Positions 3,226-47,354 of a DNA stretch of 64,000 bases are shown here, in pieces. The position numbers and the translations under genes are program-made. The notes below the pieces were generated by a model. The model saw nothing but the letters and a program-made list of their open reading frames with translations, searched no databases and was not told the origin of the DNA. Every line of letters starts with the position of its first letter. Position 1 is the first letter of the stretch. Origin of the DNA: Patescibacteria group bacterium (GTDB lineage: Bacteria > Patescibacteriota > Minisyncoccia > Phycocordibacterales > UBA918); the NCBI GenBank assembly GCA_019752815.1, contig JAIELQ010000005.1, forward strand, positions 140,816 through 204,815. Direction: 5' to 3'.

Positions 3226-3392
3226 AGAAGGCTTCCAAAAACGGCGAACTTCTTTGTCAGGCTACGGTAAAAGTTTTCTCACCGTACGTTGGGTACGGCT
3301 CGTAAACTTTTCCTTGCCTTTCGCGAATTTCACTCGTTTTAGAAAGCCTATCGGTTAGTTAGATATTTATATTTTGAAAATTTACAAATAGA

Positions 3393-3422
3393 AAAGCGGC
3401 ACCTGAGGGGTGCCGCTTTTTG
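3393..3422. terminator. Bidirectional rho-independent terminator between the ROK kinase and the convergent minus-strand ORF
   Basis: AAGCGGCACC-TGAGG-GGTGCCGCTT hairpin followed by a T-run; an A-run lies on the other side. Confidence 0.65.
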
Positions 3423-3423
3423 G

Positions 3424-3780
3424 TCATCGGGCGATTTTGACCATTACCGAATCTTGTTCATTTAGATGACGTGAATATTGGCAGAAAATATCGACAGAGA
3501 TCGGTCTTGCCATGAACAGTTGTTTTGAAACTTTTACATAGGCTACCCGTTTTTTCCACCAGTGCGGGTAGACAGTTTGACAATCTTGTTCGGTATCAAA
3601 TTCAACTTTCAGATACCAACCTAAAAGAGTATGTTCTCCAGGTTTGAGGAACTTTTTGACCGATGCAGATCTCAAATGGTGTTTTTGTCCCAAGAATTCA
3701 GGAACAAATATGCATCTGAGCCATTGTTGCCAGCTTGAGAGTTGACGGTTTTCCAGGGTAGGTATTGTCATGTATGACAT
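3424..3780 (-). CDS. Hypothetical protein
   Basis: 118-aa ORF with no recognisable motif, convergent with the ROK kinase and sharing its terminator. Confidence 0.35.
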   Translation of the reverse strand: MSYMTIPTLENRQLSSWQQWLRCIFVPEFLGQKHHLRSASVKKFLKPGEHTLLGWYLKVEFDTEQDCQTVYPHWWKKRVAYVKVSKQLFMARPISVDIFCQYSRHLNEQDSVMVKIAR

Positions 3781-3828
3781 CGAGGGACCCTTTTCAATGA
3801 GTTTTCTAAAACCGATACTACCACAATT

Positions 3829-3856
3829 TTGCAGACTGTCACATCTATCGTATAAT
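3829..3856 (+). promoter_or_regulatory. Candidate sigma70-type promoter for groES-groEL
   Basis: TTGCAG-N16-TATAAT about 85 nt upstream of the groES ATG. No CIRCE inverted repeat (TTAGCACTC-N9-GAGTGCTAA) is present. Confidence 0.4.
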
Positions 3857-3941
3857 ACCCTCGCTCGGGGAGTTTTCTATTTTTGTACAGATCTTTGAGT
3901 AATTGAAATTTTTATCATTCGCTTAACTTGTAAACACATAT

Positions 3942-4274
3942 ATGTCAGAAAATCCAAATCAAAGCGTTTCGCCGATACGACCATTAGGAGATAGAGTTAT
4001 TGTTCGACCGCTTACTGATGCCGAAGCCGGAACGCTGTCAGCCTCAGGAATTATCATTCCTGATTCCGCCAAGAAAGAAAAACCCGAACAAGGAATTGTT
4101 ATAGCGGTAGGGAATGGGAAATGGAATGAAGACGGCGATAAACGAATTGCCATGGAAGTAAAAGTTGGAGATAAAGTTATCTTCTCAAAATACGGTTTTG
4201 ACGAAGTTAAAGTTGACGGAAAAGAATATTTTATTGTCGGAGAAGCCAGTATCTTGGGTATTTTTACTAACTAA
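3942..4274 (+). CDS. groES: Co-chaperonin GroES
   Basis: IRPLGDRVIVRP...GIIIPDSAKEKP..GIVIAVGNG; 110 aa, immediately upstream of groEL. Confidence 0.95.
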   Translation: MSENPNQSVSPIRPLGDRVIVRPLTDAEAGTLSASGIIIPDSAKKEKPEQGIVIAVGNGKWNEDGDKRIAMEVKVGDKVIFSKYGFDEVKVDGKEYFIVGEASILGIFTN

Positions 4275-16405: not shown

Positions 16406-16527
16406 GCGGAGAGAGGGGATTCGAATTTTACAAATTCAGTACAGGTTATCGCTATTTTTCCAAAATAGCTGGTAACCTTTTCGAATCCCTACGTAAGTGA
16501 CGTCGAGTCACTTACTCTCCCTCCGCG
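16406..16527 (-). other. tRNA-like fragment or pseudo-tRNA. Its 3' 20 nt nearly duplicate the 3' end of the adjacent tRNA-Ser.
   Basis: GCGGAGAGAGGGGATTCGAA (16406-16425) matches the tRNA-Ser 3' end at 16567-16587 with a single-G difference. An acceptor-like pairing is possible, but the interior is a perfect 9-bp hairpin (GTAAGTGAC-TCGAC-GTCACTTAC) rather than D/anticodon arms. ATTCGAA occurs twice, flanking a roughly 55-nt insert. Confidence 0.4.
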
Positions 16528-16530
16528 AAC

Positions 16531-16559
16531 AAAAAAGGCGCCAAGAGGCGCTCTGTTTT
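16531..16559. terminator. Short terminator hairpin between tRNA-Ser and the tRNA-like fragment
   Basis: AAAAAAG-GCGCC-AAGA-GGCGC-TCTGTTTTG. Confidence 0.45.
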
Positions 16560-16566
16560 GTATTCG

Positions 16567-16653
16567 CGGAGAGAGGGGGATTCGAACCCCCGAGGAGCTT
16601 TCACCCCTGCTACCTTTCCAAGGTAGTACATTCAACCACTCTGCCATCTCTCC
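16567..16653 (-). tRNA. tRNA-Ser (anticodon GGA), class II with a long variable arm; no encoded CCA
   Basis: Minus-strand GGAGAGATGGCAGAGTGGTTGAATG...CTACC-TTGGAAA-GGTAG (anticodon loop, GGA)...long variable arm...GGGGGTTCGAATCCCCCTCTCTCCG. Confidence 0.85.
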
Positions 16654-16744
16654 TGATGGTGCTTGTGGAAAGCGTTGCTATCATAACGTAAATGGACCGG
16701 GGCGGGAAGTGATGCTATGCTTGTAGGTACTAAATAAACATTTT

Positions 16745-40791: not shown

Positions 40792-42141
40792 CTAAGATTC
40801 TTTTTCGGCTCCTGAGAGAAGCATGTCAATTCTGTTCATATCCCGCGGGAACATAGTGGCCTCACGAATATTTTTGAGACCCAGAATTTGCATCGTCATA
40901 CGTTCGGCACCAAAGGCGAATCCACCTTCTGGAGGGACGCCATATTTGAAGGCCTCCAAGAACATCGTGATTGCGTTCGGGTCCATGCCCCATGTTTTGA
41001 CGTGTTCACATAGTTGATTGTAGTCATTGATGCGTCGACCTCCAGAGAGCCATTCAATCCCTCGACATAATAAGTCCATACCTTCATTGAATTCAGGTTT
41101 TTCTGGATTTGGAAATACATAAAATGGTTTTTGACGTGTTGGGTAGCCATATACGTACACAAAATCAGAATCAGTTTCCTTTTTAACGATGTCGCACAGC
41201 GTCCGTTCGTCTTCAGGATTAAGATCTTTTTCACCACGAACATCACGGCCTGTTTTTTCAAAAATCAATTCTTGAGCTTCAGTGAGTGAATATGTTGGTG
41301 TATTTTCAAGAAGTTTTGGTAGTGTGGCATTGAGAAGCTGTAACTCCGATGAACATTTGCGTTCAACTTCAGACAAAATATATCGAACCGTTTTTTCTGA
41401 CATATCTCGAACATCTTTCCAGGAGTCAATAAATCCCATTTCTGCATCCAGAGAAACGATTTCTGTGATGTGACGCGTGGTTGCGCTCGGTTCAGCCCGG
41501 AATACTTTGTTAACAGAGAATACGCGTTCAAACGCAGTCATTACAATTTGTTTGTAGAGTTGCGGTGATTGAGTGAGGTAGGCTTTTTTATCAAAGTAAT
41601 TAACTTGAAATACCTCAGCTCCACCTTCTGCCGTTGCTGGTGTAATACTTGGTGCTTGGAATTCGAAAAATTCCTCACGTTTCATAAATTCACGGAATGA
41701 ATCAATGATGACACTTTGCACCTTGAATATAGCCTGGAGTCTCGGGTGGCGTAGCGTGAGCGCTCGGTGATCTAGTTCTGTTGTAAGGTCTAGATTGTAT
41801 CCATCAAGCGACATATCAAATGGAAGTGACTCGGCTTGTGCGAGTACAACAATTTTTGTTATTTCGAGTTCAATGGTTCCGTTTTCAGCATTTGGGTTTA
41901 CCATTTTTTCTGGTCGAGCATGCACAATACCATGCACTTCAACCACCCATTCTTGCTTAAGTTGTTGTGCTACTTCTAATACTTCAGGTTTCCCAAAAAC
42001 AACTCCTTGAATTTTTCCTGAACGGTCTCTGAAATCAAAGAAAGCCATTTTTCCTTGAATTCGTGCCACATCTACCCAACCTTTAATGGCTACTTCTTTT
42101 TCAAGATTTTGCTTCAGGTCTCGAATTAGTGTTCGTTCCAT
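40792..42141 (-). CDS. aspS: Aspartate--tRNA ligase, type 2 (archaeal/eukaryal-like class IIb; probably non-discriminating)
   Basis: ATAEGGAEVF, YLTQSPQLYKQ, FRAEPSATTRHITE, KYGVPPEGGFAFGAERM, NIREATMFPRD all follow the archaeal-type AspRS pattern (compare FRAEEHNTTRHLNE and PPHGGFGLGAERL). Confidence 0.85.
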   Translation of the reverse strand: MERTLIRDLKQNLEKEVAIKGWVDVARIQGKMAFFDFRDRSGKIQGVVFGKPEVLEVAQQLKQEWVVEVHGIVHARPEKMVNPNAENGTIELEITKIVVLAQAESLPFDMSLDGYNLDLTTELDHRALTLRHPRLQAIFKVQSVIIDSFREFMKREEFFEFQAPSITPATAEGGAEVFQVNYFDKKAYLTQSPQLYKQIVMTAFERVFSVNKVFRAEPSATTRHITEIVSLDAEMGFIDSWKDVRDMSEKTVRYILSEVERKCSSELQLLNATLPKLLENTPTYSLTEAQELIFEKTGRDVRGEKDLNPEDERTLCDIVKKETDSDFVYVYGYPTRQKPFYVFPNPEKPEFNEGMDLLCRGIEWLSGGRRINDYNQLCEHVKTWGMDPNAITMFLEAFKYGVPPEGGFAFGAERMTMQILGLKNIREATMFPRDMNRIDMLLSGAEKES

Positions 42142-42154
42142 ATTTATAAATTAA

Positions 42155-42425
42155 TTTAATTTGAGTTGGAGAAACAAAAAATCGCCTCTCCACAAATATT
42201 ATTACTAATACATGTGCAGGGGCGATCCAAAAATATTTGCTCGCGGTGCCACCCTACTTCCCTGCGGCGTATGCGCAATCAGGGCCCTCTTAGATACGCA
42301 ATAACGGGCGTTCCCGGAGACGGTTGTCTCAGGCCTCGGCAGGTGTCAGCTGCGTCGTTGGTTAAATACAGTATGCCAGTAACTAGATAGTTGTCAATTA
42401 TGTTTCGAAGCGATTACATTTGTCA
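42155..42425 (-). promoter_or_regulatory. T-box riboswitch leader controlling aspS
   Basis: On the minus strand: T-box motif AGGGTGGCACCGCG (revcomp of 42242-42255), then a terminator hairpin ATCGCCCCTGCAC...GTGGAGAGGCGAT + TTTTTTG (42161-42218) immediately before the aspS ATG. A GAC-A triplet in the upstream stem region (CUGACAC) could be an Asp specifier. Confidence 0.75.
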
Positions 42426-42435
42426 CTTCTTATTA

Positions 42436-43386
42436 TTAAATTGTAATACCTATTACATCCCGCACTCGACCCAGCATGTCATTTGAAACTAGTTTGGCTT
42501 TCCGTGCCCCTTCCGCTAATACCCCTTTTACATCGTCATCACTAATTGCAGCCCGTTTAGCGCGCATTGGTTCGATAAATGCATCAATATCTTCGATTAG
42601 CGCCTCTTTGAGATTTTTGTACTTTCCGGCATTTTCAGTGTAGAGAGTTTCTAGTTCGGCTTCGGTTCGGAATAGTTTGTGAATGGCGTAGACATTTTCT
42701 GGCCGGTCGCCGGTACTGTCGGTCACGATACTCATCACCGCCTTTTGGATATCTTCGCGACTGCCAAATAGTGGAATGGTGTTTTTGTAGCTTTTACTCA
42801 TTTTGGCACCATCGGTTCCAGGCACTACACCCACTGCTTCGAGAATGAGTTCTTTTGGTTCTTTTAATACCTCACCATAAGCGTTATTGAATTTGGCGAC
42901 TGCCTCTCGGGTATATTCCAGGTGTTGTCGTTGGTCTTCCCCTACTGGTACCAAATCAGTCCCATAGAGCAAAATATCCGCTGCCATGAGCATTGGGTAC
43001 GTAAATAGTCCGGCGTTCGCTTCGAGGCCTTTGGCCACTTTGTCCTTGTATGAGTGAGCTAACATCAAAAATGGTACGGTCACCATACAGTTGAGGACCC
43101 AACCCATTTCGGTGTGGTCTGGATTATCTGATTGGCGGAATAATGTTACTTGTTCAGGGTCTACGCCAACGGCTAGGTAATCACGAACGGTGTTGTAGAT
43201 ACTTGCCTTAAGAGCTTCTCTATCTCGCACCGATGTCAGCGCGTGGTAGTCAGCCACCATGAGGTAAAAGTTGGCGGAATCTTTTTTATCGTTGTACAAA
43301 TCCAAAAATGGCTTCATCGCGCCAAAATAGTTTCCGATATGCAGGTCTCCCGATGACTGTAGTCCCGTTAATATAGTTTGTTTCAT
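42436..43386 (-). CDS. trpS: Tryptophan--tRNA ligase
   Basis: TGLQSSGDLHIGNYFGA (HIGH), and KMSKSY. Confidence 0.92.
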   Translation of the reverse strand: MKQTILTGLQSSGDLHIGNYFGAMKPFLDLYNDKKDSANFYLMVADYHALTSVRDREALKASIYNTVRDYLAVGVDPEQVTLFRQSDNPDHTEMGWVLNCMVTVPFLMLAHSYKDKVAKGLEANAGLFTYPMLMAADILLYGTDLVPVGEDQRQHLEYTREAVAKFNNAYGEVLKEPKELILEAVGVVPGTDGAKMSKSYKNTIPLFGSREDIQKAVMSIVTDSTGDRPENVYAIHKLFRTEAELETLYTENAGKYKNLKEALIEDIDAFIEPMRAKRAAISDDDVKGVLAEGARKAKLVSNDMLGRVRDVIGITI

Positions 43387-43407: not shown

Positions 43408-43830
43408 TTACCGAGCATTTCCAAAATACTCTCTCATTTTAGTGCAGGCGGCGATAACTTCAGCTAAAAGTTCGTCTGTCACCTCTAAATTCTGGGCATG
43501 TTCCATAATTGGTCTTACTGATTGAATTTTGCGACCAAATGGTTCCATCCATTCATGTCGTGGAAACATCCAGAGATGAAAACCATGCTGAGTATCTTCA
43601 TTTTGGAATAAGTAGACGTCATTAATGCTGAGCACTTCAGACATCGCTTTACGAACTTTGGTAATTATTTGTCCAAATTCCATTGCCTCAGCCTCGGTAA
43701 ATTCACCTACTGAACGAGTAGTTCTTTTGGTGGATAGGATAAAGAAACCGACAATAGGCACTTCCCAATCTTGCGCTACAATAAAATTTTTGTTCTCAAG
43801 GATAACTTCGTTGGGAAATAAAATCTTCAT
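43408..43830 (-). CDS. HIT-like (histidine triad-related) protein with a degenerate triad
   Basis: HIT-like fold. The triad position reads TQHGFHLWMFPRH (H-x-x-H-x-W instead of HxHxHxx). Confidence 0.45.
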   Translation of the reverse strand: MKILFPNEVILENKNFIVAQDWEVPIVGFFILSTKRTTRSVGEFTEAEAMEFGQIITKVRKAMSEVLSINDVYLFQNEDTQHGFHLWMFPRHEWMEPFGRKIQSVRPIMEHAQNLEVTDELLAEVIAACTKMREYFGNAR

Positions 43831-43836
43831 GATGGA

Positions 43837-45513
43837 TTAACTCACCAGTGGCAGTGTGAGTACAAACGTTGAGCCACGTTGCTCACCTGCTGAACTACAG
43901 GTAATGTCACCACCCATCGCGCGGGCCATTTCTCGGGCCACAAATAGTCCCAATCCGGTGCCGTTAATGTTTACACTGTTAGCATTTTTAGCCCGACTGA
44001 ATTTCTGGAAGAGGTCATTAATAGTTTCAGGACTCATACCAATACCAGTATCAATAACATTTACAAATAACTGCTTGCGCCCAATATCATCGTACACAAA
44101 TACAGTGATACTTCCCTTTTGGGTGTACTTAAGTGAATTGTTGATGAGGTTATGGAGTATCTGTTGGGTTTTTGAAATATCAGCGTGCACAATACCTTGT
44201 CCCCGCATATCGGACTTAAAGAGTAACAGTAGTCCCGATCGGGTGGCTTCAGGACGCAAGTCGTCAACGATATGTTCGGCTTGCTCCCGGAGATTAAAAT
44301 CAGTATATGTGTACTTCATATTGCCAGATTCGATACGTGAGACATTAAGGAAGTCTTCAATCGAAAACGCCATCAATTTGGCTGATTCATGAATCCGTCC
44401 CAACACCTCGGTCATTTTTTCTGGTGCAGGCCCATAGTTGCCATCAAGAATCATTGACGTATAGCCACGAATAGCCGTCAGTGGACTCCGGAGTTGGTGC
44501 GAAGCAATCGACACAAATTCTGATTTTTGTTGGTCCACAATCCGTAATCGTTCGTTGGTTGATTCCAGATTAGTCGCGAGTTTCTCAATTTCTTCACGTT
44601 GGGTCACTTCACTGCGGACACTTTTGATTAAGAGTGTGCCGAGTACCGAGAAGAACAAAATAGTTCCCACTGCAATAATCTGCGCATTTTCAATTGACCG
44701 CACCAAGAGTAGTGAACACAACAAAATCAACTGTCCGGCCATCAAGGCCTCGGTCGCAAGGAGCTTAATTTTAAATGTTTGATACCGTACGAGGATGTAC
44801 CCCAAAAATGCTACAAATATTGGCATCCCAAATAAACCAATCTGTCCCGATTCCCAGTCACCGTAGAAGCTTCCGATGATGTTGCCAATTGAGAATGAGA
44901 GTAAAAATAACAAGATGCCTGCGGCAACAAGAATGGTCTCACGACGTTCCCGGCGCTTGAGTCTCACTTCTGCAATCGTGAGTAACAAGATTAATCCTAC
45001 AAATAAAAATTCAAAACCGTACACGTAGTACTGCCACAAAGGTCCTTCGGTGGCGTAACGTAAACAGTTGGTAAAATCAAAGTTTACTAGATTTAGTTTG
45101 GTGTGTCCGAATAAAATCAGAGGTAAGAACATTACAAAGATACCCAACTCAACTTTAAATGGTGGAAAAGATTTATTAAAGAAGGCGTATATGAAATAGA
45201 ATGCTCCGACGTACATCAAAAGCTCAAAGTATATTAGCGTGGACCAGACAAACATAATCACGTCCGATCGTTCTGAGGCCCAGATAATGAGGTCAAGGAA
45301 ACACCAAATAGCGAACATCACGGTGGTAAACAGGAGTGCCTGAGCTGCTTTATTGCGCACGTTGGCACGTAATACAAAAATTGCAATAATTAATCCCGAT
45401 ATAGATGGTAAAAAGTGTGCGTAGTACTGGAAACTCCCAATCAGGTTTTCTGACAGAATTAAGTAGGTGGCAGTACCCCAGGAACAAATTGTGGGATCAA
45501 CGATGTTTAGCAT
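43837..45513 (-). CDS. Sensor histidine kinase with a multi-TM N-terminal sensor domain (HK-1)
   Basis: About 7 N-terminal TM helices, a coiled coil, H-box FVSIASHQLRSPLTAIRGYTSMILDG, and HATPase N/G boxes (LINNSLKYT..., IDTGIGM, GTGLGLFVAREM). Confidence 0.85.
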   Translation of the reverse strand: MLNIVDPTICSWGTATYLILSENLIGSFQYYAHFLPSISGLIIAIFVLRANVRNKAAQALLFTTVMFAIWCFLDLIIWASERSDVIMFVWSTLIYFELLMYVGAFYFIYAFFNKSFPPFKVELGIFVMFLPLILFGHTKLNLVNFDFTNCLRYATEGPLWQYYVYGFEFLFVGLILLLTIAEVRLKRRERRETILVAAGILLFLLSFSIGNIIGSFYGDWESGQIGLFGMPIFVAFLGYILVRYQTFKIKLLATEALMAGQLILLCSLLLVRSIENAQIIAVGTILFFSVLGTLLIKSVRSEVTQREEIEKLATNLESTNERLRIVDQQKSEFVSIASHQLRSPLTAIRGYTSMILDGNYGPAPEKMTEVLGRIHESAKLMAFSIEDFLNVSRIESGNMKYTYTDFNLREQAEHIVDDLRPEATRSGLLLLFKSDMRGQGIVHADISKTQQILHNLINNSLKYTQKGSITVFVYDDIGRKQLFVNVIDTGIGMSPETINDLFQKFSRAKNANSVNINGTGLGLFVAREMARAMGGDITCSSAGEQRGSTFVLTLPLVS

Positions 45514-45692: not shown

Positions 45693-47354
45693 TTAAATAA
45701 GTGGCAGTGTAATCGTAAAGGTGGAACCGAGACCTTCCCCATCTGACGTTACCGTAATATCGCCACCCATCGCGCGAGCCATTTCTCGGGCGACAAATAA
45801 TCCTAATCCGGTACCCATGATGTTCGCTGAACTGGCCACTTTGGCGCGAGCAAATTTACCAAACAGTTTTTGCAGACTTTCTGGACTTAGTCCGAGGCCG
45901 GTATCGATGATATCGACATACATCTTTTTGGTTTTAACATCGTCGTGGGCATAGACTGTAACACTTCCTTTCGGCGTATACTTCAACGCATTGTTGATAA
46001 GATTATGCAGTATCTGTTGTGTCTTCCCCGCGTCCGCATGAACCATTCCGGTGCCAGTCATATCAGATCGGAACATAAGCAACAGTCCACGACGCACCGC
46101 GTCTGCCCGCAGGTCATCAACTACATGCTCGGCCTGTTCCTTGAAATTCATATCCTTGTAGTCGTACTTCATGTTACCTGATTCAATCCGAGACACCTCC
46201 AAAAAGTCATCAATCGACGATGCCATAAACACTGTTGATTCAGCAATTCGCCCCAGTGCCTCGTTAGCTTTATCCGGCAACTTCCCAAAACTCCCCTCCG
46301 TCATCATCGACACATATCCCCGAATAGCTGTAAGCGGACTACGTAATTGATGTGAAGCAATCGAAACAAACTCCGATTTTTGTTTGTCCAAAATCTGCAA
46401 CCGTTCATTGGCTTTTTCCAGCCCAACAGCCAAGCGTTCAATTTCTGCTTTTTGTTCAAGTTCACGACGCATGACTCTGGAAAGAATTATTCCTAGAAAT
46501 CCAAAAATGATAACAGTAATAAAAATAATTGGGCGTGCGTAACTCATGTCACGAAATAGCAACATTGAAAACATTAGTATCCATAATGCTGAAATAAGTA
46601 TTTCAGTAAATAGAGTTTTTGTGTGAAAGGCACGGTATTTAATTATTGAGTACGATACAAGGCCGGCAAATAATGGCATTCCAAAGAGTTTGTATTGTTC
46701 ATAATAAGGACCAAGGTCAAAGAATAGCGTGAAGTTACCTGCAGTAAAAAATGCTAAAAATATAAACGTAGAAATACCAATGAACAGAAGCTGGCGGCGT
46801 TCGGTTTTCTTTTCTATCCTGCTCAAGCCTTTAATTATAAATAGTACAACTATAAAAAGTAGAAAAACTTCTACAAAGTACATGTATTGAATTACAATCC
46901 CCTCGAATGCCCCTGTGTCACAATCTGGTGACAAGCCAATCACGTTCAAACTTGTATGAGCAAATAATAGAATCGGAACAAGAAGTAGTGAGAAACAAAC
47001 TTTCATCCATGTAGGCATATCAACTTGCCTGTTACTAAAGAGGTATACCAAGTAAACGGCAGAGAGGTACATTAAAAGCTCAACTGGAACAATCAGTGAC
47101 CAGAAAAACACCACCATTTCAGGTGTCGGTGAGGCCCATAAGATTAAGTTAAAGTATACCCATGTCGCAAATAGAACTGTTGTAACAAAGAGAACTCTGT
47201 TCGCAAGCTCTTTTGGATTACTGATAAGGACCTGGAAACCTAAAAACAATGAAATAACAAGTGGTAGTACATGTGTGTAGTAGATAAGCTTACCGACGTT
47301 TTCAGAAAATATGAGTAGGGCTGCGCTCCCCCATTCGCAAGGATTATCTATCAT
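45693..47354 (-). CDS. Sensor histidine kinase, paralog of HK-1 (HK-2)
   Basis: Same architecture; H-box FVSIASHQLRSPLTAIRGYVSMMTEG; N/G boxes LINNALKYT, IDTGLGL, GTGLGLFVAREM. Confidence 0.85.
   Translation of the reverse strand: MIDNPCEWGSAALLIFSENVGKLIYYTHVLPLVISLFLGFQVLISNPKELANRVLFVTTVLFATWVYFNLILWASPTPEMVVFFWSLIVPVELLMYLSAVYLVYLFSNRQVDMPTWMKVCFSLLLVPILLFAHTSLNVIGLSPDCDTGAFEGIVIQYMYFVEVFLLFIVVLFIIKGLSRIEKKTERRQLLFIGISTFIFLAFFTAGNFTLFFDLGPYYEQYKLFGMPLFAGLVSYSIIKYRAFHTKTLFTEILISALWILMFSMLLFRDMSYARPIIFITVIIFGFLGIILSRVMRRELEQKAEIERLAVGLEKANERLQILDKQKSEFVSIASHQLRSPLTAIRGYVSMMTEGSFGKLPDKANEALGRIAESTVFMASSIDDFLEVSRIESGNMKYDYKDMNFKEQAEHVVDDLRADAVRRGLLLMFRSDMTGTGMVHADAGKTQQILHNLINNALKYTPKGSVTVYAHDDVKTKKMYVDIIDTGLGLSPESLQKLFGKFARAKVASSANIMGTGLGLFVAREMARAMGGDITVTSDGEGLGSTFTITLPLI

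What the first reader, a model, noticed from the sequence alone, without database searches (positions are those of the whole stretch)
42142..42435. T-box riboswitch in front of an archaeal-type aspartyl-tRNA synthetase
Seen in sequence: on the minus strand, the conserved T-box element AGGGTGGCACCGCG is followed by a terminator hairpin and T-run just upstream of the aspS start. A candidate GAC-A specifier lies in the upstream stem region. From known T-box biology, this is the classical tRNA-sensing antitermination architecture. Inference: the regulated enzyme here is a type-2 (archaeal-like) AspRS, probably non-discriminating, so the leader would sense tRNA-Asp charging. T-box leaders are typical of Firmicutes and a few other phyla, so finding one here is taxonomically informative.
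Basis: partly seen in the sequence, partly recalled or inferred. Interest (0 to 1): 0.6.

Follow-up and report, generated by a model that had tools for sequence, protein, structure and literature searches.

The report
Minimal T-box leader controlling aspS
The 294-base gap in front of the aspartyl-tRNA synthetase gene of this candidate-phyla-radiation bacterium holds a real tRNA-sensing T-box transcription attenuator, but a stripped-down type whose Asp codon sits in the end loop of a four-base-pair hairpin, a design reported so far only for translation-controlling ileS leaders of Actinobacteria.

Summary
On the minus strand, AGGGTGGCACCGCG (42255-42242) sits in a 7-nt-bulge antiterminator. Its 3' strand is shared with a long terminator hairpin (42227-42180) followed by a U-run, about 30 nt before the aspS ATG. 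GAC-A is present at 42347-42344.

Rfam RF00230 does not reach its gathering score (38.2 against 93 bits). The hit is still significant (E 5e-7 for the region, 6e-5 for the whole window).

About 30 related leaders upstream of AspRS homologs in Patescibacteria MAGs and metagenomes share the architecture, with clear covariation.

The "classical architecture" reading is only half right:
- Stem I is ultrashort: a K-turn, 4 bp, and a terminal loop CUGACAC. It has no distal tRNA-elbow platform.
- Stem II is cut to a 5-bp stub without the S-turn.
- The helix A2 sensor pair is G-C, not G-U.
- The IIA/B pseudoknot, RRRNG-Stem III-AA motif and T-box bulge (UGGC) are kept.

The gene is an archaeal-type aspartate--tRNA(Asn) ligase by NCBIfam.

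Best reading: a tRNA-Asp-sensing transcription attenuator, and a new variant of the T-box kind. The apical-loop specifier was previously tied to translational ileS leaders of Actinobacteria. The host is CPR, not Firmicutes. tRNA binding and the cognate tRNA sequence are untested.

The parts
42370..42397 (-). Promoter-like site: TTGACA, 16 nt, CATACT with an upstream TG. It places the transcript start a few bases before the leader.
   Evidence: 10 of 12 matches. The same TTGACA...CATACT/TAATAC arrangement is seen by eye at the same distance in L081, L077 and L024. Function is inferred.
42354..42362 (-). K-turn, 5' strand: C-stem ACC, 3-nt bulge AAC, then G-A (and C).
   Evidence: The C-stem covaries with the 3' strand in 27 distinct leaders (92.6% paired; AU/GC/UA and CG/GC/AU types).
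42339..42353 (-). Ultrashort Stem I: GCAG / CUGC (4 bp) closing the 7-nt terminal loop CUGACAC. The specifier GAC is at 42347-42345 and the conserved purine A at 42344.
   Evidence: All 4 pairs show changes on both sides and 97.2% of cells are paired. RNAalifold recovers the hairpin independently on a plain MAFFT alignment.
42333..42338 (-). K-turn, 3' strand: C, G-A, then GG(C), which pairs with the 5' ACC.
42317..42330 (-). Stem II reduced to a stub: GAGAC-AACC-GUCUC. The S-turn (AGAA... / AGUAGAA) is absent.
   Evidence: 21 Rfam model positions are replaced by 8 nt; about 38 alignment columns are deleted relative to relatives that carry GAGAAGAA...AGUAGAAC. L081 (AspRS 97% identical) has the same stub with a different loop.
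42296..42316 (-). Stem IIA/B pseudoknot: CGG-GA-ACGC-CCG-UUAUU-GCGU. IIA is CGG/CCG and IIB is ACGC/GCGU. It includes the F-box-like CCGUUA.
   Evidence: matches the Rfam consensus CGguuauuucCGUUA; 95.2% paired against 88.3% in shuffles, and the two outer IIB pairs change on both sides.
42258..42291 (-). Discriminator flank: AAGAG (RRRNG), Stem III (GGCCCUG...CAGGG with inner GCG/CGC), then AA.
   Evidence: The motif is defined in PMC7583486 and PMC7778990. The inner helix changes from GCG/CGC to GUG/CAC in L081 and L077.
42216..42257 (-). Antiterminator: helix A1 GUAGGG/CCCUGC, 7-nt T-box bulge UGGCACC (UGGC at 42251-42248), helix A2 GCGA/UCGC, 15-nt loop.
   Evidence: A1 and A2 predicted by RNAalifold with compensatory changes.: -11.6 kcal/mol for the bare helices.
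42172..42227 (-). Intrinsic terminator: a long imperfect hairpin, GAUCGCCCCUGCACAUGUAUUA-GUAA-UAAUAUUUGUGGAGAGGCGAUU, followed by UUUUUUGUUU. Its 5' arm contains the antiterminator 3' strand.
   Evidence: terminator fold -28.4 kcal/mol against -21.3 with the antiterminator enforced; the script found a 37-52-nt hairpin ending at a U-run, with its 5' arm on the antiterminator 3' strand, in 22 of 31 leaders.
42159..42175 (-). Post-terminator segment GUUUCUCCAACUCAAAU, complementary to the terminator 3' arm (42197-42182). It offers a third alternative hairpin, possible only in read-through RNA.
   Evidence: -14.4 kcal/mol against -6.8 +/- 2.1 for shuffles (0 of 200). Complementarity is kept with different sequences in 11 other lineages at p <= 0.025. 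Also chosen in the MFE fold. Function unknown.
40792..42141 (-). Regulated gene: archaeal-type (type 2) AspRS, 449 aa.
   Evidence: NF003483 aspartate--tRNA(Asn) ligase 461.8 bits (cut-off 353); TIGR00458 aspS_nondisc 377.9 bits (cut-off 368.4).
42436..43386 (-). Upstream neighbour trpS. It has no T-box of its own and marks the 5' limit of the intergenic region.

Best explanation
The leader is a T-box-type riboswitch that controls aspS by transcription attenuation in response to the charging state of tRNA-Asp.

Proposed mechanism:
1. Transcription starts a few bases upstream of 42362.
2. The GAC triplet, presented in an anticodon-loop-like terminal loop (C-U-GAC-A-C) of a 4-bp Stem I on top of a K-turn, pairs with the GUC anticodon.
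3. The UGGC of the 7-nt T-box bulge pairs with the free 3' GCCA end of uncharged tRNA. This stabilises the weaker antiterminator, so RNA polymerase reads into aspS.
4. Charged tRNA cannot be accommodated. The more stable terminator, which shares UCGCCCCU with the antiterminator, then forms and stops transcription at the U-run.

Shown here: all sequence and structure elements, their conservation and covariation, their mutual exclusivity and their energy ranking.

Inferred: tRNA binding, the identity and discriminator base of the tRNA, and the regulatory outcome.

The decoding half is a reduced design. It has no distal Stem I platform and no Stem II S-turn. tRNA capture must therefore rest on the loop-loop codon-anticodon contact, helped by the K-turn and IIA/B pseudoknot scaffold, plus the discriminator.
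For: - RF00230 hit of 38.2 bits, E 5e-7 for the region and 6e-5 for the window, aligned end to end over model positions 1-219.
- The T-box 14-mer is unique in the window; 0.07 expected.
- The terminator fold (-28.4 kcal/mol) is more stable than the antiterminator fold (-21.3), and they share a strand.
- The custom model R1 detects 19 leaders that were not in its training set, all upstream of AspRS homologs, at E between 4e-20 and 2e-7. It gives only one hit in the 64-kb window at E <= 1.
- Stem I and K-turn covariation: 95.2% of cells paired against 70.3% in shuffles; 39 cells changed on both sides against 9.8; 0 of 500 shuffles reach this; slid registers give 21-50%.
- Pseudoknot covariation.
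- RNAalifold recovers Stem I, IIA, A1 and A2 independently, with 8 compensatory pairs.
- The loop triplet is GAC in 27 of 28 leaders. It is AAC (Asn, the second substrate of a non-discriminating AspRS) in L044.
- UGGN is UGGC or UGGU throughout, and both can pair with a G73 discriminator.
- A terminator plus U-run is conserved.
- There is no Shine-Dalgarno sequence inside the hairpin, and the ATG lies about 30 nt beyond the U-run.
Against: - The score is far below Rfam's gathering threshold.
- No tRNA-Asp gene is available in the window or in loci L001-L120, so the anticodon and discriminator could not be checked.
- The literature states that transcriptional T-boxes generally need the long Stem I elbow-binding platform. 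It also states that truncated Stem I RNAs barely bind tRNA without the Stem II S-turn (PMC7583486). This copy has neither, so its function cannot be taken for granted.
- The base pair of helix A2 that normally acts as the G-U aminoacyl sensor is G-C here.
- About three quarters of sampled relatives have no T-box upstream of aspS.
- There are no experimental data.
Confidence: 0.85

Rival explanations
1. A classical (class I) T-box leader with a long Stem I and the specifier in an internal loop.
For: The discriminator half (RRRNG-Stem III-AA, T-box bulge, A1/A2, terminator) is canonical.
Against: Only 15 nt lie between the two K-turn strands, which leaves no room for a distal Stem I. cmscan deletes 74 Stem I model positions. 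The hairpin with a terminal GAC loop is supported by covariation in 27 distinct leaders. The score of 38.2 bits is far below the gathering score of 93.
Confidence: 0.02
2. A decaying, non-functional T-box relic. Having lost the elbow platform and the S-turn, it no longer binds tRNA. The terminator then acts constitutively (leaky) or is bypassed by read-through from trpS.
For: Loss of the two modules that the literature describes as needed for tRNA affinity. Relatives form a reduction series, down to Stem I plus a roughly 25-nt linker plus the antiterminator (L135, L085, L065). Most relatives have lost the element altogether.
Against: The specifier loop, K-turn, T-box bulge and terminator are kept across lineages whose AspRS is only 51-97% identical, and compensatory changes maintain the helices. 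The triplet remains GAC, or AAC in L044, and so matches the enzyme. A relic would not keep covariation.
Confidence: 0.08
3. A translational T-box, like the ultrashort-Stem-I ileS leaders of Actinobacteria. The 3' hairpin would act as a sequestrator of the ribosome-binding site rather than as a terminator.
For: The apical-loop specifier is otherwise reported only in translational T-boxes.
Against: The hairpin is followed directly by UUUUUUGUUU. The ATG lies about 30 nt further on, in an AU-rich stretch, and no Shine-Dalgarno sequence lies in the hairpin. Where relatives have a clear AGGAGG (L064, L065), it lies downstream of and outside the hairpin. The hairpin plus U-run is conserved.
Confidence: 0.04

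Closest known systems
Class I transcriptional T-box leaders (Rfam RF00230; e.g. Bacillus subtilis tyrS, glyQS)
   Same: K-turn at the base of Stem I; codon followed by a purine; IIA/B pseudoknot with F-box-like CCGUUA; RRRNG-Stem III-AA; UGGNACC bulge between helices A1 and A2; a competing intrinsic terminator that is more stable than the antiterminator; an aminoacyl-tRNA synthetase gene downstream.
   Different: No long Stem I, AG bulge, distal loop or double T-loop platform. The specifier is in a terminal rather than an internal loop. Stem II is cut to a stub without the S-turn. The base pair of A2 is G-C instead of G-U. The score is 38 bits against a gathering score of 93. The host phylum is Patescibacteria.
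Ultrashort-Stem-I (US) T-box leaders of actinobacterial ileS (Mycobacterium smegmatis / M. tuberculosis; Sherwood et al. 2015; structure 6UFG, as cited in PMC7583486 and bioRxiv 10.1101/2023.02.28.530422)
   Same: A short Stem I helix on a K-turn with the specifier in the terminal loop; no elbow-binding platform; a IIA/B pseudoknot follows.
   Different: Those leaders are translational (SD sequestrator). According to the 2023 preprint, all regulate ileS and respond to tRNA-Ile. They depend on a Stem II S-turn. Here there is a terminator with a U-run, aspS, a GAC specifier, a Patescibacteria host, and no S-turn in the window copy.
glyQS-type T-boxes without a Stem II domain
   Same: They do without the Stem II S-turn. 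The review explains this by the strong GGC/GCC codon-anticodon duplex; GAC/GUC also has two G-C pairs.
   Different: glyQS leaders keep the long Stem I with the elbow platform and lack the IIA/B pseudoknot. The window copy is the reverse.
T-box control of a non-discriminating AspRS / gatCAB operon in Clostridium acetobutylicum. One of three aspS genes is T-box-regulated according to PMC2494555. The Asn specifier is from my own recollection of Saad et al. 2012 and was not checked here.
   Same: A T-box in front of an AspRS that also serves Asn-tRNA synthesis. L044 in this family carries an AAC (Asn) triplet.
   Different: That one is a classical long-Stem-I leader in Firmicutes. Here the specifier is Asp in nearly all members, and the architecture is minimal.

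Membership tests
T-box leader (RF00230) | Conserved T-box sequence forming a 7-nt bulge (UGGNACC) between helices A1 and A2 | tested here: met
   AGGGUGGCACCGCGA at 42255-42241. A1 is GUAGGG/CCCUGC and A2 is GCGA/UCGC.
T-box leader (RF00230) | Terminator hairpin with a U-run, mutually exclusive with the antiterminator and more stable than it | tested here: met
   Shared strand UCGCCCCU; -28.4 against -21.3 kcal/mol; conserved in relatives.
T-box leader (RF00230) | Specifier codon matching the regulated gene, followed by a purine | tested here: met
   GAC-A at 42347-42344 in front of aspS. GAC in 27 of 28 aligned leaders and AAC in one.
T-box leader (RF00230) | K-turn (GA motif) at the base of Stem I | tested here: met
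   ACC-AAC-GA ... GA-GGC arrangement; the C-stem covaries. The three-dimensional kink itself is not testable here.
T-box leader (RF00230) | Long Stem I with AG bulge, distal loop and double T-loop platform that stacks on the tRNA elbow | tested here: not met
   74 Stem I model positions are replaced by 5 nt. Only 15 nt lie between the K-turn strands.
T-box leader (RF00230) | Stem II with S-turn (present in most non-glycine T-boxes) | tested here: not met
   The window has GAGAC-AACC-GUCUC only. Relatives such as L057, L083, L084 and L079 do carry AGAA.../AGUAGAA.
T-box leader (RF00230) | Stem IIA/B pseudoknot | tested here: met
   CGG/CCG and ACGC/GCGU, with covariation in the outer IIB pairs.
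T-box leader (RF00230) | RRRNG-Stem III-AA purine motif | tested here: met
   AAGAG-[Stem III 42286-42260]-AA, read directly from the sequence. The motif definition is from PMC7583486 and PMC7778990.
T-box leader (RF00230) | G-U wobble at the base of helix A2 (aminoacyl sensor) | tested here: not met
   G-C in the window (ACC-G...C-CCC) and in most relatives; A-U in L064 and L065; G-U in L155.
T-box leader (RF00230) | Reaches Rfam's gathering score | tested here: not met
   38.2 bits against 93. Six relatives score 31-52 bits, and L135 is not detected at E <= 0.01.
T-box leader (RF00230) | Binds uncharged cognate tRNA; N of UGGN pairs with the discriminator base | not testable with these tools
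   No tRNA-Asp gene in the window or in L001-L120. That tRNA-Asp carries G73 is general knowledge, not checked for this organism.
Ultrashort-Stem-I (US) T-box class | Short Stem I with the specifier in the terminal loop and no elbow platform | tested here: met
Ultrashort-Stem-I (US) T-box class | Translational control by an SD sequestrator | tested here: not met
   Hairpin plus U-run; no SD in the hairpin.
Ultrashort-Stem-I (US) T-box class | Regulates ileS and responds to tRNA-Ile (all known members, per bioRxiv 10.1101/2023.02.28.530422) | tested here: not met
   aspS downstream; GAC specifier.
Non-discriminating archaeal-type AspRS | Matches the curated equivalog models for aspartate--tRNA(Asn) ligase | tested here: met
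   NF003483 461.8 bits against 353; TIGR00458 377.9 bits against 368.4.
Non-discriminating archaeal-type AspRS | Genome lacks asnS and has gatCAB; the enzyme charges tRNA-Asn | not testable with these tools
   No GatA- or GatB-like ORF was recognised in the window: 10 of the larger ORFs were scanned with Pfam and 4 others with NCBIfam, and the two histidine kinases were judged by eye. The rest of the genome is not available. The AAC specifier in L044 is indirect support.

The most novel reading that the evidence does not exclude
Patescibacteria (CPR) carry a previously undescribed class of minimal transcriptional T-boxes dedicated to the archaeal-type AspRS gene. In this class the tRNA anticodon is read by an anticodon-loop-like terminal loop on a 4-bp Stem I. 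The elbow-binding platform is absent, and Stem II, the pseudoknot and Stem III are dispensable to different degrees: a stub in the window, all absent in L135, L085 and L065. If these leaders work, a transcription-terminating T-box does not need the Stem I platform or the S-turn. That contradicts the current generalisation, and some of these RNAs would be the smallest natural T-boxes (about 100 nt).
Probability: 0.5. Interest if true: 0.7.

Novelty: new variant of a known kind. Interest (0 to 1): 0.6.

Why it matters
Reviews of T-box structure state that transcriptional T-boxes need the long Stem I platform to capture tRNA fast enough. They also state that short Stem I RNAs need the Stem II S-turn. 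The apical-loop "ultrashort" class is described as translational and ileS-only.

This conserved, covarying family breaks all three associations: it has a terminator, it precedes aspS, and S-turn loss is tolerated. It sits in CPR bacteria, a group absent from the T-box surveys I could read.

It offers small natural constructs for testing what is minimally required for tRNA decoding and aminoacylation sensing. It also shows that Rfam's gathering threshold misses the whole family: members score 31-52 bits against 93. Annotation of reduced genomes therefore under-reports tRNA-sensing regulation.

Tried and rejected
- Rfam at the gathering threshold found only a tRNA.
- The built-in terminator scan found nothing, because of its loop limit. 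I replaced it with explicit folding.
- I looked for tRNA-Asp or tRNA-Asn genes to test the anticodon and discriminator. There are none in the window or in 120 loci.
- I looked for gatCAB or asnS in the window and recognised none.
- I looked for further T-boxes in front of the window's trpS and gltX, and anywhere in 1.09 Mb of related loci, using a regular expression and the custom model. All real hits lie upstream of aspS.
- Literature searches for T-box together with candidate phyla radiation, Patescibacteria, Parcubacteria or Saccharibacteria returned nothing. Sherwood 2015 and Vitreschak 2008 are not held, so their content is cited second-hand from PMC7583486 and a 2023 preprint.
- A plain MAFFT alignment of the Stem I region (A1) put some rows out of register. 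I replaced it with an anchor-based, N-padded alignment (A2). That alignment was partly guided by eye, so I cross-checked it with RNAalifold on an untouched MAFFT alignment.
- I considered and rejected the other reading frames of the loop (UGA, ACA). GAC-A is the aligned, conserved triplet plus purine, and it matches the gene.

Full report
**Observation**

The 294-nt gap between trpS (42436-43386, minus strand) and aspS (40792-42141, minus strand) was read on the minus strand. It contains the following:
- AGGGUGGCACCGCGA at 42255-42241. This is the only match to AGGGTGGNACCGCG in 64 kb with up to one mismatch; 0.07 are expected.
- A long hairpin at 42227-42180.
- UUUUUUGUUU at 42181-42172.
- The aspS ATG at 42141.
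- GAC-A at 42347-42344.

**Rfam**

At the gathering threshold the window gives only a tRNA-Ser. With E-value reporting, RF00230 (T-box) matches 42215-42367 on the minus strand. The score is 38.2 bits against a gathering score of 93, with E = 5e-7 for the region and 6.3e-5 for the whole window.

The alignment runs end to end through the model but shows three departures:
- 74 model positions of Stem I are replaced by 5 nt.
- 21 positions of Stem II are replaced by 8 nt.
- The consensus G-U at the base of helix A2 (CGU-CCC) is G-C here (UCGC-CCC).

The IIA/B element (CGGGAACGCCCGUUA), Stem III and the T-box/antiterminator align well.

**Anatomy of the window copy**

| Element | Coordinates (minus strand) | Sequence or note |
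|---|---|---|
| Promoter-like site | 42397-42370 | TTGACA-16-CATACT with TG |
| K-turn, 5' strand | 42362-42354 | ACC-AAC-GA-C |
| Stem I | 42353-42339 | GCAG/CUGC closing terminal loop C-U-GAC-A-C |
| K-turn, 3' strand | 42338-42333 | C-GA-GGC |
| Stem II stub | 42330-42317 | GAGAC-AACC-GUCUC |
| IIA/B pseudoknot | 42316-42296 | CGG/CCG and ACGC/GCGU |
| Discriminator flank | 42291-42258 | AAGAG, Stem III, AA |
| Antiterminator | 42257-42216 | A1 GUAGGG/CCCUGC, bulge UGGCACC, A2 GCGA/UCGC |
| Terminator and U-run | 42227-42172 | long imperfect hairpin, then UUUUUUGUUU |

The terminator's 5' arm contains the antiterminator's 3' strand, so the two folds exclude each other. The terminator fold is the minimum-energy structure (-28.4 kcal/mol). 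With the antiterminator enforced the energy is -21.3. For the bare helices the values are -17.8 and -11.6. This is the energy ranking expected of a T-box, where uncharged tRNA must tip the balance.

No Shine-Dalgarno sequence lies in the hairpin. The ATG follows about 30 nt after the U-run, in AU-rich sequence. Attenuation of transcription, not sequestration of a ribosome-binding site, is therefore the indicated mode.

**Host and gene**

The AspRS (449 aa) passes both curated NCBIfam cut-offs for aspartate--tRNA(Asn) ligase: NF003483 at 461.8 bits against 353, and TIGR00458 at 377.9 bits against 368.4. This is the archaeal-type, non-discriminating class.

Its closest homologs in species-representative genomes are MAGs labelled Candidatus Kaiserbacteria (94% and 91% identity), Paceibacterota, Nomurabacteria and similar groups. 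All belong to Patescibacteria/CPR. A metagenome contig, LNFM01001005.1, is 97% identical.

The window also holds gltX (31131-32678) and trpS. Neither has a T-box. No GatA- or GatB-like ORF was recognised in the window.

**Comparative evidence**

A search for the T-box core upstream of the AspRS homologs, followed by a custom covariance model, gave these results:
- The element is present in 17 of about 75 genome loci with usable upstream sequence.
- It is present in about 20 further metagenome loci, some of them duplicates.
- It is always upstream of aspS and never elsewhere in 1.09 Mb.

Model R1 was built from 9 leaders, including the window. It detects 19 leaders outside its training set at E between 4e-20 and 2e-7. 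It gives a single hit in the 64-kb window at E <= 1.

Loci without the element mostly have aspS close behind an upstream gene. The median gap is 46 nt, against 276 nt for loci with the element.

Rfam scores of six relatives are 31-52 bits. The most reduced one, L135, is not detected at E <= 0.01. The whole family therefore lies below Rfam's threshold.

**Covariation**

I built an anchor-based alignment of the K-turn and Stem I from 28 leaders, 27 of them distinct (A2). On it:
- 95.2% of cells are paired, against 70.3% in shuffles.
- 39 cells are changed on both sides, against 9.8 in shuffles; 0 of 500 shuffles reach this.
- Slid registers give 21-50% paired.
- All four Stem I pairs and two of the three C-stem pairs show compensatory change. 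Examples are GCAG/CUGC, CCAG/CUGG, CCGG/CCGG, GCCG/CGGC and GUGG/UCAC.

This alignment was partly made by eye. As a cross-check, RNAalifold on an untouched MAFFT alignment of 9 full leaders recovers Stem I, IIA, A1, the 7-nt bulge and A2, with 8 compensatory pairs. It also shows the window and L081 lacking about 38 columns of Stem II.

The IIB pseudoknot helix shows changes on both sides in its two outer pairs: 95.2% paired against 88.3% in shuffles, with 2 of 500 shuffles reaching the count of double changes. A second subfamily shows UAAUC/GAUUA, CUGCA/UGCAG and ACC/GGU by eye.

The loop triplet is GAC in 27 of 28 leaders and is followed by A in 26. L044 has AAC-A, the Asn codon, which fits a non-discriminating AspRS.

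UGGN is UGGC in most leaders and UGGU in some. Both can pair with G73.

The script found a 37-52-nt hairpin whose 5' arm starts on the antiterminator 3' strand and which ends at a U-run in 22 of 31 leaders. Most of the others appear by eye to be script mis-parses at U-runs inside the hairpin loop, or weaker U-tracts.

**Comparison with what is known**

According to the review PMC7583486:
- Transcriptional T-boxes generally require a long Stem I with the double T-loop platform.
- Apical-loop specifiers occur in short Stem I's.
- Truncated Stem I's barely bind tRNA without the Stem II S-turn.
- A G-U wobble at the base of helix A2 is the main sensor of the aminoacyl group.

A 2023 preprint (10.1101/2023.02.28.530422) states that the ultrashort class is translational, and that all its members regulate ileS and respond to tRNA-Ile.

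[quoted passage not shown] An early survey lists Firmicutes, Actinobacteria, Chloroflexi, Deinococcus-Thermus and two Proteobacteria (PMC2494555).

I found no paper in the held library that links T-boxes with CPR groups. That is absence of evidence only.

Against this background, the window element works like a T-box and has the canonical discriminator. Its decoding half combines features not reported together:
- ultrashort Stem I with an apical specifier;
- an intrinsic terminator;
- an Asp specifier with aspS downstream;
- loss of the S-turn;
- G-C in place of the sensor wobble pair.

I file it as a new variant of the T-box kind. It is not a member of the classical class I or of the US class, because defining features of each were tested and not met.

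**Mechanism and its weak point**

The shown parts support tRNA-Asp-dependent antitermination. How such a reduced decoding module captures tRNA within the time window of transcription is open.

One inference is offered here. The loop C-U-GAC-A-C has the format of a tRNA anticodon loop: pyrimidine 32, U33, a triplet, purine 37. The contact with the tRNA-Asp anticodon loop could therefore be a loop-loop complex, which is more stable than a triplet in an internal loop. GAC/GUC has two G-C pairs, the argument the review uses for glycine T-boxes that lack Stem II. This is untested.

The main rival is a decaying relic. The maintained covariation and the conserved specifier make it unlikely, but it is not excluded for the window copy specifically.

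**Limits**

- No tRNA sequence is available.
- There are no expression data.
- The covariation alignments of short elements were anchored by hand.
- E-values of R1 are rough, and the window was in its training set.
- Novelty rests on a literature search of an incomplete library.

Noticed in passing
window 42159-42197 (-); also L081, L001, L006, L024, L077, L087, L044, L062, L150, L157, L159: The ~17-20 nt immediately after the terminator U-run are complementary to the terminator's 3' arm. In the window the duplex is -14.4 kcal/mol against -6.8 +/- 2.1 for shuffles. Complementarity is kept by different sequences in different lineages. This allows a third alternative hairpin that can form only in read-through RNA. 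Its function is unknown.
   Followed up: partly
L135:2010-2106, L085:1254-1355, L065:3864-3945: These are extremely reduced relatives: K-turn, 4-bp Stem I with a GAC loop, a roughly 25-nt purine-rich linker (..AAUGAGACAAAAGU..) and the antiterminator/terminator. They have no Stem II, no pseudoknot and no Stem III. L087, L157 and L159 keep Stem III but lack Stem II and IIA/B. Together with the window they form a stepwise reduction series.
   Followed up: partly
L044:3787-3930: One leader in front of an AspRS homolog carries AAC-A (Asn) instead of GAC-A in the specifier loop, together with a UGGU bulge. This fits regulation of a non-discriminating AspRS by tRNA-Asn.
   Followed up: partly
L138-L141 (e.g. 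L138:2136-2255), L148/L149: This is a more distant AspRS clade (53-55% identity) with weak R1 hits. They have a GAC terminal loop and a IIA/B pseudoknot, but an AUGGCAC bulge or loop nested inside a helix GACCC...GGGUC that is itself followed by the U-run. The terminator/antiterminator topology is therefore different, and the switching logic is unclear.
   Followed up: no
L083:~720-1030, L085:~1420-1750, L135:~2170-2500, L066:~3360-4000: In several relatives a small ORF of unknown function (about 90-210 aa, not similar across all) lies between the T-box terminator and aspS. It would be co-regulated with aspS.
   Followed up: no
window 43837-45513 and 45693-47354 (-): Two tandem paralogous ORFs (558 and 553 aa) look by eye like multi-pass membrane sensor histidine kinases. 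They lie just upstream of a 140-aa ORF with no NCBIfam match (43408-43830) and of trpS.
   Followed up: no
window 16514-16667 (-): tRNA-Ser(GGA) lies at 16566-16653. The sub-threshold Rfam hits sX4 and Plastid-psbl-rps4 overlap this tRNA and are most likely spurious.
   Followed up: no
window 31131-32678 (-): A GluRS gene (gltX) has no T-box or other Rfam hit upstream. Of the three aminoacyl-tRNA synthetase genes in the window, only aspS has a leader of this kind.
   Followed up: partly
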